64,000 nucleotides of DNA from the human T2T-CHM13v2.0 reference genome, Homo sapiens: NCBI RefSeq assembly GCF_009914755.1, contig NC_060930.1, one strand, 5' to 3'. A program made the position numbers and the translations under genes. Positions 54,505 through 64,000 of the stretch are shown here, piece after piece. Position 1 is the stretch's first letter, and the number at the start of each line of letters is the position of its first letter. Below the pieces are notes generated by a model. That model was not told the origin of the DNA and did not search any database. It worked only from the letters and a program-made list of their open reading frames with translations.

Positions 54505-55863
54505 ACAATCAAAACTTCATGTTTAATAGGGATTCATCTGTTTCCCATACTTTTTACATGTTCAGTTCAGACAGAACTCATGGAAGAAAAGACTTTTCTG
54601 TGAGATAGAACAGACCATCTGCTTGACCGGATGGCTCTGAGGGACAGCCAAACTCCCAATGGCCAAAGGGCTGTGAGGAAGGGCAACACGTATCAGAAGA
54701 ATTTTCAGCAAGGGCTGAAACACAGTAAGGTTAGCCACAAAATGGAATGAGAGAAGCCCTAACCCAATGGGAGTTTGCCTAATTTTAATGAACCCAAACT
54801 CTAACATTGTACTGGAAAAGCAGCATTAAAATCCAGCCTGATTATCACAATTTACAGAATTTCTCACCAGAGGCCCACAGGTGAAAAAGCTGCTTACTCT
54901 AAAGCCCTTAGAACCGTATTGTGAACTGCGCATGCGAGGGATCTAGGTTGCGTGCTCCTTATGAGACTCTAATGCCTGATGATCTGAGGTGGAAGTTTCA
55001 TCCTCCACCACCACCCCGTCCATGGAAAAACTGTGTTCCACAAAACTGGTCCCTGGTGCCAAAAAGGTTAGGGACTGCTGCTTTAGAATATAAGAAACAA
55101 CTCAAGCAGCCAACGGGTCTGGAGTTAACACTTCCAGCCCTCCCCTTTGTACACACTCAACACTTCTTGCTGAACTGGCCGTTAATAACCACTTGTGAAA
55201 TCCCTCCCCACACCTGCACTTAGGCGTTTGTCTCTTCCTACCTTCCTTTACTGAGTAGTGGCAAAATAATAGGAGAGTGGAAGATGGTGATGGGCAATGA
55301 AGAGGGACCTATTTCTGAAGAGGAGATGTTTTAAAGGTATTTTATTTTTCAATACCAGTAATGACTGAAAATTAAAGAATTAAAGCAGGAAGCAAAACAA
55401 AAACAAACAAGAAACCCAAAACTTGCAACCTAAACTCTCCGGGAAAAAAAAAATTGCTATAAATGTTAAAAGACTTAAAGAGAACATTGACAATGCAGCC
55501 CTGATGTACCTAATCATACTTCAAACTGCTGGATGTTTTAAGCTGAGAATCTCCCCAGTGCCTTTCTAGTGCTCTAAAATCATCTCCCAAACAGATGAGA
55601 AATGAAACAAACAGGTCTCCCTTCTTGAGTACATAATTTTTATAAATTGCGTCGGACCCACAGTGAATGTATTTTAGAGAGTTTCACCAAAACTATCAAA
55701 GATCAAATGGCAGCAAAAGATCAGGGAAAGAAGGTAGAAAAACTATGCAGTCACAGAGCTAACCCGCAAGCTGCCCTTAGTCCTATACACCTGAAATCAA
55801 ATCCATAGCCAATGGTGAGGAAGACCACATCAGAGGTTAGCTGCATGACAGCACAGCTGGGTC
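54505..55863 (-). other. SAYSD1: SAYSD1 3'UTR (end approximate)
   Basis: Downstream of TAG; candidate ATTAAA on the minus strand at 54527-54522, followed by a T-rich element. Confidence 0.6.
54910..55082. mobile_element. MER1B-like fragment in the SAYSD1 3'UTR
   Basis: attgtgaactgcgcatgcgagggatctaggttgcgtgctccttatgag..ctaatgcctgatgatctgagg..ggtccctggtgccaaaaaggtt. Confidence 0.8.
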
Positions 55864-56208
55864 CTATCTCCCTGCCAGGGGTCTCAACTGTAACTCGCGC
55901 TCCAACTGCTCTGCAGTCAGGGTGCCCTGGATGGCTTCACAGCCTGGATTGAACACAGAGTAGGCGCTCTTCTCTCCCTCTTTCTTCTCTTCAGGGCCTC
56001 GTGTCCCGACGTACATCCAATAGAACAAGGACAGGACAAAATATGCCAGGCCAAATTCCAGTTCCACAAACAGTCCCAGCAGGACCAACCAGAGAAGAAC
56101 CTTCAAGAAGGTGATATTGGTCAGGAAAGACTGGTCCCAGCACGACGGCAGAGGAATGGCTGTGTTCCATGGTGTCTCTGATGTGCTGCCCTGGGGCTGA
56201 GCCGCTTC
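55864..56208 (-). CDS. SAYSD1: SAYSD1 last coding exon (SAYSvFN-motif membrane protein)
   Basis: Minus strand reads EAAQPQGSTSETPWNTAIPLPSCWDQSFLTNITFLKVLLWLVLLGLFVELEFGLAYFVLSLFYWMYVGTRGPEEKKEGEKSAYSVFNPGCEAIQGTLTAEQLERELQLRPLAGR*; acceptor cctag at 56210-09 after a T-rich tract; 345 nt; exon 1 lies beyond the window end. Confidence 0.96.
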   Translation of the reverse strand, partial: EAAQPQGSTSETPWNTAIPLPSCWDQSFLTNITFLKVLLWLVLLGLFVELEFGLAYFVLSLFYWMYVGTRGPEEKKEGEKSAYSVFNPGCEAIQGTLTAEQLERELQLRPLAGR

Positions 56209-56685
56209 CTAGGATACACAAACAAACAAAAGAAAGAATAAAGGGTAATGGAGCTGAGATGATCAAAACTAATCTGAAAAGGCAGTTTTCATTGCTCTGA
56301 GAAGGCTGCTGGCTCATTGATTTCTATTCTTTCATGCAACTCTCTAAAACAATCATCTCCAAAGAACCTATGTGCTCTACTCCAACTGAATCAAAACTGA
56401 TCAGCACTTAGTGAGATGTGACCTAATAAAAGCCCTACGTATTCAGACAGATTCTTATTCGTGGGAGTCATTTCTTCAGATTAGTCTGCTGCTAAGAAGA
56501 GCTAATTTGTGCCCCATACAGAAACTCCTGAATAACTGATAATGCAACAGTCATGACAAATGCTTCAAATACAGAGTCAATATACCTTTGTTGATTGGAT
56601 TAGATGACCTAAAATATTACAAGTGACATGATTCTAAAATAGAGACAGGAAACAAAAATCCTTTTTATGTTTAAAAAAAAAAATC

Positions 56686-56973
56686 AGCCAGGTGCACACC
56701 TGTAATCCCAGCACTTTGGGAGGCTGAGGCAGACAGATCACTTGAGCTCAGGAGTTTGAGACCAGCCTGGCCAACATGGTGGAACCTCATCTCTACTAAA
56801 AATACGAAAATTAGCCAGCATGGTGGCACACGACTGTAATCCCAGCTACTCAGGAGGCCAAGGCATGAGAATCGCTCAAACCTGGGAGGCGGAGGCTGCA
56901 GTGAGCTGAGATTGCACCACCACACTCTAGCTTGGGCAACAGACCAAGACACTGTCTCAAAAACAAACAAAAA
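56686..56973 (+). mobile_element. Alu (J/S) in the SAYSD1 intron
   Basis: Dimer with a small 5' deletion and AAAC tail. Confidence 0.93.
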
Positions 56974-58999
56974 CCACTGTTACAGCCATTACTGGGCCCC
57001 CTTACCTTCCCATCCCGTGATTAACCTACACAGGTCATTGTCACTCACCCAAGGCCCAGCCAATGTCTCCTAACTAGACTCCCTGCCTCCTATCTCTTCC
57101 CTCCCCAAGCCATCCTATGTACAACTGCTAAATGAATTTTCTTAAAGACCTATTACCCTCCTGTTCACAAACCTTCAAAAACTTTCACTGCCTACAGGAT
57201 AAAATCCAAACTCCTTGGGCTGGAACCCAAGACCCTCAATTTGTTCAACAGATTGAAATGCCAGTAGACAGGCCCCTGTGCCAGATGCTAATGGCAGACA
57301 CAGGTATTTAGACAGCTCTGTGTCCAGTCCACTGTTTTCGGAACTCTTTTGAACATGACCTACAATAAGGAATACATTTTAGACTGTAATCCAGAATACA
57401 TATATGCAACAAAGTTTCACAAGTCAACACTTACCCTCCCTGAGACATTCTCTTGTATTTCCTATTCTACTTTAAAAACATTTTTAATAGGGAACAAGAT
57501 CTTCTATATTAATTTCACCATCCACTAATGGGTCACAGTGGTCTAGGAAATTCCATGACAACACGATCCACAATCTTTTGTTCCATAAATGACCCTTCTT
57601 CTCCAGCTTAACTGGTCTTATTACCCAAAGATATTCTCAGTCCTCATCTCAAGCCTAGAATTCCGTCCACTTCCTCTTTCTTCCTTAACTCTTTGCCTTC
57701 CTTCCAGGCAAGCACCGTTCATGAACTGTCAGCCCTGACCTCCCTGGGCATCAGGGAGGGTGCCCCCTCTGCCTCCCCCAGAACTAGCTCTCCCGTTCAT
57801 TAAGCACCAAACTATTCAGCACTACAGTGTCTCTCTTTTACTATAGGTCATGTCATGTATGATGCCAGATTGTTTAAGTACCAGGAAGCCACGTGTCTCC
57901 AGATCCAAACATGGCATCCCATACTTAGGTTCTCAATTCATAGCAGAACTTTCAGTTCATCTCTTCAGTTACATCCCCTATTCTTCTTCACGTGCATATT
58001 TAAAAGGGGATCACAAATACTGGTCATCTGATTTATGATGTTTCAGAAGTTCTATTTTGTCAGAACCTTCTTTTTTAGCATCAACATTGTAATTATTATC
58101 TTTTCAGTTAGATTAGAAAGTCTGATTGGAGAGGCCCTTATATTATCAGCCACATCCCTGACCCCTGATACTCATTAAAGAAAGAAATGTCTGTTTCAGA
58201 TTTGACATGCATGCACAGTATGCGTTCTGGCCCAAGAAGAATGCATCTGGGCAGTGTTCTGGGCAAAGGGGAGAGTAGCATGAGATGACAGGGCTAAGGA
58301 GGGAGGGCATGAGGGTGGGAGCCAGATAAAGTAGGGCCAGGCAGGTTGCAGTGAAGATTCTGGAAATGGGAAACAGCTGAAGGTCTAAGCAGGGAACTAA
58401 CCAAAAGCATGAAATCCCTGGTGCTAAAAAGGTTGGGGAGGAGGCCTAGCAAGAGAGAGCCAGACATTGACCAGGGTGGTGACAGCAGTCAGATGGAAAT
58501 AGTGGACTGATGGACACAAAATACATTCTGAATATACATGTTGAGATTCACAATAAACTAAATTTATCATTTAGGGAGTATAAAAAGAAGAATGTTCCTA
58601 TGTCACCATTTACTGAGAGCCTTCCAATGTATGAACTCTGGTAATCCAGGAAGCAGGCATTATTATTCCCAACTTACTGATAAGAAAACACTGAGAGGTT
58701 AAGTAATTTCCCTAAAGCCATAAAACTAGTGATAGGCAGAGATGAGGTCAGTCTCGGATCCTAGGATGGTCTCCTCCAAAATATATTTTATTTAATTAGG
58801 GGCCTTTATGGGGGGTGGCAGGAGAAAGGTTAGGGAGCTAGAGGTAGATGGGTGTGGGGGTGGGGGGGTAAACAAACTGACGAAGGGAACAAACAAGAGG
58901 AGAGATACGGACATTCTTCTGCCTCATTTGGAACTTGTCGGAGTACCAGTTCCCTTCTGCTGTAAAACCTGGGTGAAGAAGTGTTTGTGACTGTTACAT

Positions 59000-59495
59000 C
59001 ACACACAGGCATGGTCCAAGGAAGGCACTGCCATTCCTCAAATATCAAGCTGCTTCTTACCTTAGGGCCTCTGCACTTGTGGTTCCCTCTGAGAGGAATG
59101 CTCCCTTCCCCTCATATCACTTGGTTGACCCCTCCTACTACAAACGGCAAAAATGTCACCGTATGTGCCCTTGGCTTAGTCCCCGTTTTTGCCAGGGTGG
59201 TTCCTTCTTGTTAAATGTCTCCTCCTTAGTGAGTTCTCCCTGCTCAGCTGATTTAAAATAGTACTCTGCTCCCCTCACCCCTAATTCACTATCACAGTCT
59301 ACTGGTTTTATCTTTTTTCTTTCATAGCATTTATCTGGTTTTGTTTATTGTCCTCCTTTCCCTGCTGCCCCAAGCTCAAATGCAAGTTGTACAAGAGTAG
59401 GACTTGTGTGTCTTAATTACACTGTCTCCCAGGATTTAGAACAAAAGCTGGAACACAGCGGGCACATGACAAGATTTTTGTTGAATGAATGAATG
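59000..59495 (-). mobile_element. L2 3' fragment
   Basis: agggcct.tgcacttgtggttccctctg..ggaatgctc..tcatagcatttatc..ttgtttattgtc.. ending ttgttgaatgaatgaatga. Confidence 0.65.
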
Positions 59496-59959
59496 ATAGT
59501 GAGGGAAAGGAAGAAATTCAAGATGACTACTAGATTTTGCGGGGGTGAGGCACAGCTGTGCTTAGCCAGGCGACTCCAAAGGAGAGCCTTTGAGCAGAAG
59601 GCCAGCCTGAGCCAAGGCCTGGAGGTCAGGAGTGGTGGATGGGTATGGGAAATGGGTTCTGGGGCAGGGTGGTGTGCTGGGGGCTTGCCTGGGATATGGC
59701 TGGAGAGGGAAGCAGGAGGTTTCTGTAGGAATTTTTAAAAGTTACCAGCATTTTTGTCCTAATGTGGAAGAAGCTCGTCACAGAATTATTTCAGGAAACT
59801 GCTTTTCTCCAAGCAAAATCTGGTAGTGGGAAGGAGGATGTAGATACTTCCTCATCAATGACTGCTGAAAAGATGCAGCGGCATTGTCAGTCACAGCGAG
59901 GCCCGGGTCGGGGCAGAGGCATCATTGCAGTCAGAGCTTGGCCCAAATGGAGGCCGCAG

Positions 59960-60760
59960 TGGCTTTGTTGCTCCAAATGACATGGTTTAGTTATTTTGAT
60001 GGCCAAAGAGTATTCTTTGTGCATATACATTACAGTTTCTTGATCCCTTCATCTGTAGATGGACAGGAGATAAAGTTTTTGGAATCTCCATGCCTGAGAT
60101 TAAAAGGTGTGGGACTTCCTCTACCAGGCTCATTTCCTTGGACCTAATATCCTCTGGGTTTCTTGGGTTTCTCCACATGGCTGTGGATGACAGGATTTCC
60201 CAAAGCTTTATGGCTGAAGCATATTCCATAGTGTATCTGTATGGTGGTTTCTTTATCCCTTCAGCTGTGGGTGGACAGGACAGGTCATTTACCATGATGT
60301 CCTCTAGGTTCAACAGTGTGGCTGCAAATGATGTAATTTCATTACATTTTTCTGGATGAAGAGTATTCCATTTGTGTATATATACTACAGTTTCTTTATC
60401 CCTTCATCTGCGGATGAACAGGTTTCTCCACATGGCTGCCAATGACAGGATTTCATCCACTTCTGTCGTGGAAGGGTATTCCATTCTGGATATATATTTC
60501 AGTTTTGTCATCCCTTCATCAAGGGATGAACAGGTTCAACTGTGTGGCTCCAGGTGATATGATTTCAGTATATGTGCACAGCTGAAGGGTATTCCATTGT
60601 GAATGAATACTACAGTTTCTGTATCCCTTCATCTGTGGATGAACAGGTCTCTCTCCACGTTGCTGGAAGTGGGGTGATGTCCTAAAGTTTGATGGCTGAA
60701 GAGTATTCCATTGTGCAAATATCCTGGAGTTTCTGTATTCCTTCATCTGTGGATGAACAC
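59960..60760 (-). repeat. Six degenerate ~112-114-nt units resembling an antisense L1 3' segment
   Basis: Recurring ...GTATTCCATTGTG...CAGTTTCT.TATCCCTTCATCTGTGGATG(A/G)ACAG; units end at 60066, 60278, 60421, 60533, 60646, 60760. Confidence 0.85.
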
Positions 60761-63390
<2,630 letters not shown>

Positions 63391-63454
63391 AATATTTGGC
63401 TACGGCTACATGTTGAACCTAGTTGAATATAAAAATTAATAGACAAAAAATGTG

Positions 63455-63720
63455 TTTACCATACTGTATAATTCCATTTACATGAAACATCCGGAAAAGA
63501 CAAATGTATAGATAGAAAGCAGACTGACATTTGTGCGGGGCTGGGGTTGGAAATGGGTAGTAACTGCTAATGTGCAAGAGGGGTCTTCTTGGAGTGATAG
63601 AGACGTTCTAAAGTTGCAGTGATGGTTGCATGACTCAATAAATTTACTAAAAATCTTTGAACTGTATGTTAAAAGAGATAAATTCTGTAGTATGTAAACC
63701 TTATTTCAATAAAGCTGTTT
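63455..63720 (+). mobile_element. L1M 3'-end fragment with AATAAA, inside the retrocopy 3'UTR
   Basis: catactgtataattccatttacatgaaa..gttctaaa.ttg..gtgatggttgca..aaatttactaaaa..ttgaactgta..tcaataaagctgtt; AATAAA at 63708-13, A-rich 63726-63770. Confidence 0.75.
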
Positions 63721-64000
63721 CAATTAAAAAAACAAAAATTAAAAATAATTTAAAAAAATAGAATGCTAAAGAAATCTCTGACAGGCCACAGTGTGCCATC
63801 AAAATTGTCTGACATGAATTGTAAATTAGACTTTTTCTTTTCTAAACTAGAGGCAGAATCTGAAGAAAAAAAATTAAATGAGAATTTTCACACCAGAGCA
63901 AACCCAGAAATGATAAGTCAATGAAAATGAGCTTAAGGCAGAGTCCCTTATGGAAAAACAGAGCAATTAACAAGAAACTGGAGGTCCAGCATTTCCTCTC

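What the first reader, a model, noticed from the sequence alone, without database searches (positions are those of the whole stretch)
59960..60780. Retro-pseudogene leader looks like a fossil chain of spliced L1-derived mini-exons joined to ANKRD exon 2
Seen: six diverged units precede the ankyrin sequence. Cores 60167-60278, 60308-60421, 60422-60533, 60534-60646 and 60647-60760 are 112-114 nt, start GT(T/C) and end GGATGAACAG/GGACAG (last unit ...AACAC). Units 2 and 3 carry extra upstream sequence ending in an acceptor-like tcctct(a/g)g, while units 4-6 abut without it. The last unit joins directly to G ACT GCT TTA CAT (TALH). Established (recall): the unit matches the antisense L1 segment tcctccag|gttcatccatg...tattccattgtg...ttcatctgttgatggaca, and exon 2 of ANKRD26/POTE-family genes starts at G ACT GCT. 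Inference: the parental transcript skipped the normal coding exon 1 and spliced through a tandemly amplified L1 array, using the same cryptic acceptor and donor in each repeat, before retrotransposition. It would be a fossil record of serial exonisation of an L1-derived macrosatellite.
Basis: partly seen in the sequence, partly recalled or inferred. Interest (0 to 1): 0.7.

Follow-up and report, generated by a model that had tools for sequence, protein, structure and literature searches.

The report
Fossil mRNA of spliced LINE-1 exons
This dead gene copy begins with six short pieces of jumping-gene (LINE-1) DNA whose relatives lie scattered kilobases apart between splice signals on other chromosomes, so it likely preserves an old RNA that spliced these pieces, one per repeat, onto an ankyrin gene from a parent locus that was not found intact in today's genome.

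Summary
Six 104-114 nt units (65-81% alike) precede ankyrin exon 2 of ANKRD18EP. They are antisense LINE-1 ORF2 3' sequence. Five of six group with a different spaced genomic unit, bounded by AG and GT exactly where the leader joins; similarity stops at those points. Genomic order matches: u1-u2-u3 classes follow a CpG first exon on chr22/14/2, and u5-u6 classes precede POTE exon 1. One clade for the six units is rejected (AU p 6e-29), and abutting units occur only here and in a chr10 pair.

The ankyrin exons are ANKRD18/20-like (81-84%), not POTE-like (65-67%), and no ANKRD18/20 locus with the array was found. Exon-1 skipping is unproven, because a chr7 locus lacks exon 1 outright. The chr13 copy is a DNA duplicate of this insertion, not independent support. 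This is a new variant of known phenomena, with no function shown.

The parts
59871..59962 (+). Possible remnant of the GC-rich first exon of the parent transcript (weak)
   Evidence: Best two hits of a 4-row first-exon profile in 10.9 kb, but only E 0.12-0.13; not significant. The chr13 duplicate and the chr10 pair keep a clearer first-exon end directly before their first unit.
59963..60066 (+). u1: antisense-L1 mini-exon, class A, 5' end eroded
   Evidence: Best non-duplicate genomic matches are chr14:13,377,741 (79%) and chr22:16,361,084 (78%) among 40 of 103 candidates scored. Tree support is weak, 82/56.
60067..60278 (+). u2: long form (203 nt plus a 9-nt duplication within 60155-60172), class B, upstream acceptor used
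   Evidence: Genomic paralogues match from AG|GAGATAAAG to CAG|GTAGGT, 75-79%; clade support 100/95.
60279..60283 (+). 5-nt duplication of the u2 end
   Evidence: Direct reading of the sequence; probably arose after insertion (inference).
60284..60421 (+). u3: 138-nt form, class C, acceptor 24 nt upstream of the core
   Evidence: 85% to chr22:16,364,567-16,364,704, bounded by AG and GTAAGT; clade support 96/82.
60422..60533 (+). u4: unit with no identified genomic source; 5' half u2-like, 3' half u3/u5-like
   Evidence: Best genomic match 76% among all 10 candidates; halves 83% and 82-84%; long unresolved branch.
60534..60646 (+). u5: mini-exon of the second-last class upstream of POTE
   Evidence: 84% to chr5:179,364,452; clade 99/97 with chr5, chr8 and two chr22 POTE-upstream units.
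60647..60760 (+). u6: mini-exon of the last class before POTE exon 1; carries an ATG at 60753 in frame with ankyrin exon 2
   Evidence: 85% to chr8:47,520,514; clade 98/98 with chr8 and chr22 16,238,794 / 16,255,839; reading frame.
60761..63724 (+). Intronless, disabled ANKRD18/20-type body from exon 2 through the large coiled-coil exon and 3' end (ANKRD18EP)
   Evidence: Exons contiguous here but separate in genomic paralogues; exon 2/3 identity 84%/81% to chr13:23.148 Mb against 67%/66% to POTE on chr22; stops.
63725..63768 (+). Decayed poly(A) tail; 3' end of the retrocopy
   Evidence: 14 of 17 ANKRD loci tested align up to here, then share a different flank (scores 526 or more among themselves, 36 or less to the window); 3 did not align.
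55555..64000 (+). Block, with the retrocopy and its flanks, duplicated with chr13:23.956-23.969 Mb
   Evidence: 84-92% matches at 55555-55812, 57475-58401, the retrocopy, and past the window end to 64895.

Best explanation
The leader is made of antisense LINE-1 ORF2-end fragments whose genomic relatives sit kilobases apart between AG and GT, and it is most likely the spliced 5' end of an old mRNA that was reverse-transcribed into the SAYSD1 intron. Step 1 (shown): one L1 fragment has a donor (CAG|GTAGGT) where dispersed L1 copies read CAC|TTAGGT. Step 2 (shown): this fragment exists as a decayed tandem family, so each repeat holds an AG/GT-bounded 111-114 nt cassette. Step 3 (inferred): a CpG promoter upstream drove a transcript that took one cassette per repeat, using a further-upstream acceptor in repeats 2 and 3, then spliced to exon 2 of an ANKRD18/20-type gene. 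Exon 1 was either skipped (about 55%) or already deleted. Step 4 (shown for intron loss and the tail; inferred for the L1 machinery): the mRNA was retrotransposed. Step 5 (duplication shown; direction and date inferred): the insertion with its flanks was later duplicated to chr13, and the parent locus was broken up, leaving u1-u3 classes behind one promoter and u5-u6 classes upstream of POTE. The copy is now a non-coding fossil.
For: Identity is 75-85% inside each of 7 segment/paralogue pairs and 3-12 of 30 in the flanks, with the drop at AG and GT. 23 of 23 array units have AG before and 22 of 23 have GT after; 0 of 6 dispersed L1 copies have GT there. The u2 and u3 extensions start at genomic AG sites. 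Five of six units group with different genomic classes in genomic order. One clade for the six is rejected, AU p 5.9e-29. Abutting unit-unit junctions: 6 matches genome-wide, 3 here and 3 in the chr10 pair, control 0. The chr10 pair joins the same first-exon end directly to three abutting units and then different sequence, probably a second processed product. Two array units match L1 ORF2p residues 1158-1234 (E 2e-7, 2e-6). The last join falls at both the unit donor and the ANKRD exon 2 acceptor.
Against: No single locus holds all six classes plus an ANKRD18/20-type exon 2. The array was seen upstream of POTE-type exon 2 only (chr22 read directly, chr14/chr2 by coordinates, chr7), which is 65-67% like this copy. 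No array unit was seen near ANKRD18/20 loci (the DNA searches scored only 40 of thousands of candidates, and only one such locus was read, 9.4 kb upstream of exon 2). u4 has no source and u1's placement is weak. No target-site duplication was found. No RNA data were available. The 23 array units include near-identical duplicates, and two were located with a donor-containing pattern. The chr13 copy is not independent.
Confidence: 0.88

Rival explanations
1. Same spliced chain, but the parent had lost ankyrin exon 1 by a genomic deletion that put the L1 array directly in front of exon 2, so nothing was skipped.
For: At chr7:39,972,721 a u6-class unit lies 1.38 kb before exon 2; chr22-like sequence jumps from 1 kb after the unit to 0.4 kb before exon 2, removing exon 1. 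A large ANKRD exon lies 53 kb downstream on the same strand.
Against: The chr7 exons are POTE-like and only 64-67% like this copy, so chr7 is not the parent. On chr22 exon 1 is intact between the last unit and exon 2.
Confidence: 0.4
2. The leader and the ankyrin body came from two different RNAs joined by template switching during reverse transcription or by trans-splicing.
For: Best matches of leader and body lie at different loci, and no ANKRD18/20 locus with the array was found.
Against: The join is exact at both the unit donor and the exon 2 acceptor, which template switching does not predict. The array is linked in cis to ANKRD26-family exon 2 on chr22 and chr7. All best matches are about 80-86%, as expected for scattered descendants of one parent.
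Confidence: 0.06
3. One L1 piece was amplified head-to-tail here after insertion.
For: u3-u6 abut with a period of 113. u4 looks chimeric, and small duplications exist.
Against: One clade is rejected. Units are closer to distinct genomic classes than to each other. The u2 and u3 extensions match genomic flanks.
Confidence: 0.02
4. The parent held the units as a contiguous 113-bp genomic tandem array that was transcribed unspliced.
For: The chr10 pair holds three abutting units in genomic DNA.
Against: The chr10 units start exactly at the first-exon donor position and are not next to an ankyrin gene in the held loci. No other abutting junction exists among the 6 matches. All other counterparts are spaced and AG/GT-bounded.
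Confidence: 0.03

Closest known systems
Processed pseudogenes as fossils of ancient or chimeric transcripts
   Same: Intronless body, decayed poly(A) tail, dispersed site, exon junctions preserved. The concept is established (recalled; listings only).
   Different: It records a chain of six repeat-derived exons from a locus not found intact; the RefSeq pseudogene span starts at 60756 and leaves out the leader.
Antisense L1 exonisation at the ORF2/3'UTR boundary (Attig et al. 2018, PMC6108849; passages read)
   Same: Antisense L1; splice sites near the ORF2 end, which the paper calls the hotspot for LINE-derived exons.
   Different: One exonised fragment was tandemly multiplied and used serially, with a donor shared across the family.
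DUXAP8/DUXAP9/DUXAP10 and FAM230C 5' region
   Same: The chr22:16.36 Mb units (111, 112 and 138 nt; ends 1649 and 1867 bp apart) agree with my recollection of GENCODE DUXAP8 exons. That is recalled: it comes from no call, and one search did not corroborate it. Delihas 2018 (PMC5906017, passages) lists DUXAP9/10 as carrying the 5' half of FAM230C.
   Different: Those are living lncRNA loci with other downstream exons; here the chain continues through u4-u6 into ankyrin exon 2.
POTE / ANKRD26 / ANKRD18-20 family (PMC7073761, passages)
   Same: Shared exon 2 start; the paper derives POTE from ANKRD26 more than 35 Myr ago. The array lies upstream of the chr22 POTE gene.
   Different: The passages seen treat LINEs inside POTE genes only ('upstream' occurs 0 times). 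This copy is ANKRD18/20-like, not POTE-like.

Membership tests
Processed pseudogene | Introns absent, exon junctions exact | tested here: met
   exons 2-4 contiguous here, separate in paralogues.
Processed pseudogene | 3' poly(A) remnant where parent homology ends | tested here: met
   14 of 17 loci diverge at 63725-63768; 3 did not align.
Processed pseudogene | Target-site duplication | tested here: inconclusive
   None found; the 5' boundary is uncertain and the insertion is old.
Antisense L1-derived exon | Homology to L1 on the opposite strand | tested here: met
   Paralogous units with flanks match ORF2p 1158-1234 and a dispersed copy matches at E 1e-39. The window's own 34-37 aa translations gave no hit (0 of 6 in Pfam, 0 of 2 in PDB).
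Antisense L1-derived exon | Genomic counterpart bounded by AG and GT | tested here: met
   23 of 23 AG, 22 of 23 GT; no source for u4.
Antisense L1-derived exon | Seen in spliced RNA | not testable with these tools
   Only fossil junctions; the DUXAP8 exon match is recalled.
Antisense L1-derived exon | L1 subfamily assignment (Dfam) | not testable with these tools
Macrosatellite | Many near-identical kilobase units at a regular period | tested here: not met
   2-6 units per stretch read, spacing 0.9-12.4 kb, neighbours about 67-70% alike.
ANKRD18/20 clade as parent | Exons 2-3 closer to ANKRD18/20 loci than to POTE | tested here: met
   84%/81% against 67%/66%; clade names are recalled from chromosome positions.
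ANKRD18/20 clade as parent | Array present upstream of such a locus | tested here: inconclusive
   Not seen; searches were capped and only one locus was read.

The most novel reading that the evidence does not exclude
The 5' exons of the DUXAP8/9/10-FAM230-type lncRNAs and the units upstream of POTE are shards of one lost primate transcription unit. In it a CpG promoter and a chain of L1 exons replaced ankyrin exon 1 and supplied a new in-frame start codon (ATG at the end of the last L1 exon). Surviving POTE loci may still make exon-1-less isoforms the same way in testis or tumours.
Probability: 0.2. Interest if true: 0.65.

Novelty: new variant of a known kind. Interest (0 to 1): 0.46.

Why it matters
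It shows how one splice-site change in an L1 fragment, multiplied by tandem duplication, can give a whole run of new exons. It also links the region upstream of POTE, and (by recall) the 5' exons of cancer-associated lncRNAs, to one ancestral unit. It gives exact junctions to look for in long-read RNA. It does not show a function, and the retrocopy itself is dead.

Tried and rejected
1. The chr13 copy, which joins u2 straight to exon 2, first looked like an independent splice form. Rejected: it shares both flanks with chr6, so a deletion between the near-identical unit ends is simpler.
2. POTE as parent: rejected on exon identity.
3. chr13:23.148 Mb as an intact parent: no unit in 9.4 kb upstream of exon 2.
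4. chr7:39.97 Mb as parent: exons only 64-67% alike.
5. Target-site duplication searches found nothing convincing.
6. Short unit translations gave no Pfam or PDB hit.
7. Window 59500-59975 has no second match in the genome; the first-exon profile match there is not significant.
8. The upstream query hit a dispersed repeat (MER1-like, recalled) and was uninformative.
9. Literature: ANKRD18EP appears in 4 papers, listings only, none on its structure by title or abstract start. Searches showed no description of this leader or array in their listings. Subscription papers are missing from the library, and no supplements were opened.

Full report
OBSERVATION. Six related units precede the ankyrin sequence, as described. 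They are 65-81% alike and well above chance (TRF score 327; periodic identity 0.416 against a maximum of 0.365 in 1000 shuffles). u6 joins ankyrin exon 2 at 60761.

L1 ORIGIN. The window's own short translations found nothing (0 of 6 in Pfam, 0 of 2 in PDB). Two paralogous genomic units, read with their flanks on the opposite strand, match human L1 ORF2p residues 1158-1230 and 1165-1234 (E 2e-7, 2e-6). A dispersed copy that resembles the units matches residues 1146-1269 (E 1e-39). Attig et al. 2018 (PMC6108849; passages read) place most splice sites of LINE-derived exons at the ORF2/3'UTR boundary, so the site is a known hotspot.

GENOMIC COUNTERPARTS. The leader search returned 41 matches from 40 of 1004 candidates scored. 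For the tree I used 27 of the 70 loci then held, leaving out near-identical duplicates and ankyrin-body loci, and kept only units covering nearly the whole profile, which dropped the chr7 unit. That gave 37 units outside the window: 23 spaced array units, 6 dispersed L1 copies and 8 units in abutting chains. AG precedes 23 of 23 array units and GT follows 22 of 23. GT follows 0 of 6 dispersed copies, which read CAC|TTAGG or CAT|TT there. Two caveats: some array units are near-duplicates, and two were located with a donor-containing pattern. In 7 segment/paralogue pairs, identity is 75-85% inside and 3-12 of 30 in the flanks. The u2 and u3 extensions begin at genomic AG sites 91 and 24 nt upstream of the core acceptor. 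The core acceptor of u2 reads GG in both chr6 and chr13, which may explain the switch (inference).

ORDER. On chr22, a CpG first exon ends at 16,358,951 with a GT donor, followed by classes A, B and C ending at 16,361,188, 16,362,837 and 16,364,704. u1, u2 and u3 group with these (82/56, 100/95, 96/82). About 100 kb upstream lie two triplets of units, the last ending at 16,255,839, then POTE exon 1 at 16,264,005 and exon 2 at 16,269,277 (the name POTE is recalled from the translated motif). u5 and u6 group with the second and third members of these triplets (99/97, 98/98). The same triplet is on chr8. u4 has no source (best 76%) and looks half u2-like, half u3/u5-like. The sizes and spacing of the A-B-C units agree with my recollection of GENCODE DUXAP8 exons; this comes from no call, and one search did not corroborate it.

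REFUTATION TESTS. Holding the six units in one clade costs 128.5 log-likelihood units (AU p 5.9e-29), against local amplification. A pattern for abutting units found 6 matches genome-wide, control 0: 3 here and 3 in a chr10 pair. The chr10 pair joins a related first-exon end directly to three units and then to other sequence. It is probably a second processed product, but I saw no tail or target-site duplication there.

RETROCOPY. Exons 2-4 are contiguous here and separate in paralogues. Of 17 ANKRD loci tested, 14 align up to the A-rich stretch at 63725-63768 and then continue with a shared flank unlike the window's; 3 did not align. That marks the tail. No target-site duplication was found.

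RESULTS AGAINST MY FIRST READING. The chr13:23.96 Mb copy joins u2 directly to exon 2, and I first took it for a second splice form. It shares 5' flank (57475-58401, 84%; 55555-55812, 87%) and 3' flank (to 64895) with chr6. It is therefore a DNA duplicate, 87.6-89.3% identical, and its missing u3-u6 is most simply a deletion. That divergence suggests roughly 35-45 Myr for the duplication (inference from recalled neutral rates), with the insertion older. The ankyrin exons are 84%/81% like the chr13:23.148 Mb locus but 67%/66% like chr22 POTE, so POTE is not the parent. No array unit appeared near ANKRD18/20-type loci, though the DNA searches scored only 40 of 2444, 8667 and 6679 candidates. At chr7:39.97 Mb a u6-class unit lies 1.38 kb before a POTE-like exon 2 with exon 1 deleted, so exon 1 need not have been skipped. 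The array is irregular (0.9-12.4 kb spacing) and about 67% alike between neighbours, so it is not a macrosatellite.

MECHANISM. Shown: an antisense L1 fragment with a family-wide donor, its decayed tandem family, class-by-class colinearity with the leader, an intronless body and a tail. Inferred: transcription from the CpG promoter, serial splicing, L1-mediated insertion and break-up of the parent. u6 ends with an ATG (60753) in frame with exon 2, but 23 other ATGs precede it within 59900-60760, so protein output from the parent is doubtful.

KNOWN AND NEW. Retrocopies as transcript fossils, antisense L1 exons and tandem exon duplication are all known. The papers read, in passages only, were PMC7073761 (LINEs inside POTE genes), PMC5906017 (DUXAP9/10 share the 5' half of FAM230C), PMC11846448 (nothing on this locus in the passages shown) and PMC6108849. 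Listings showed no account of this leader or array. The library lacks most subscription papers, and I opened no supplements.

VERDICT. The feature is real and the spliced-chain reading is well supported (0.88). The parent locus was not found and no function is shown. It is a new variant of a known kind; interest 0.46.

Noticed in passing
window 55555-64000 and chr13:23.956-23.969 Mb: An old DNA duplication (about 12-16% diverged) copied part of SAYSD1's last exon and intron plus the retrocopy. The chr13 copy has deletions (58402-~59900, u3-u6, ~62048-62946), a ~100-bp inversion and Alu-like insertions.
   Followed up: partly
L010:1400-1975 and L021 (chr10:32.14 and 29.45 Mb): A duplicated pair holding a first-exon end plus three abutting L1 units and further short segments. 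A third paralogue at chr10:27.44 Mb has both flanks but no match to the chain.
   Followed up: partly
L070:4584-6741 (chr7:39.97 Mb): A POTE-like locus with exon 1 deleted and the last array unit 1.4 kb before exon 2. The unit has lost its acceptor region, and a large ANKRD exon lies 53 kb downstream.
   Followed up: partly
chr22:16,228,200-16,255,839 (L062, L064-L066): The array upstream of POTE is a duplicated triplet of unit classes, also seen by coordinates on chr14 and chr2.
   Followed up: partly
chr12:107.757-107.765 Mb; chr22:22.507, 24.147-24.157 and 25.913 Mb; chr5:179.364-179.368 Mb; chr8:47.520-47.526 Mb: Further fragments of the donor-bearing L1 array, not near any ankyrin hit listed.
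   Followed up: partly
L003:2873-3196 on the minus strand (chr13:13.71 Mb and five acrocentric paralogues): Downstream of the class B unit the sequence matches five 22q11 sites at 94%, consistent with the FAM230 family (name recalled).
   Followed up: no
window 59746-64152, minus strand: The annotated alternative SAYSD1 exon runs antisense across the whole leader and pseudogene.
   Followed up: no
window 61030-61073: An exact 21-nt tandem duplication inside the ankyrin body.
   Followed up: no
L069, chr8 about 47,513,500-47,514,500: A CpG-rich stretch with short GC-rich repeats, SVA-like by recall, 6 kb downstream of the u6-class unit.
   Followed up: no
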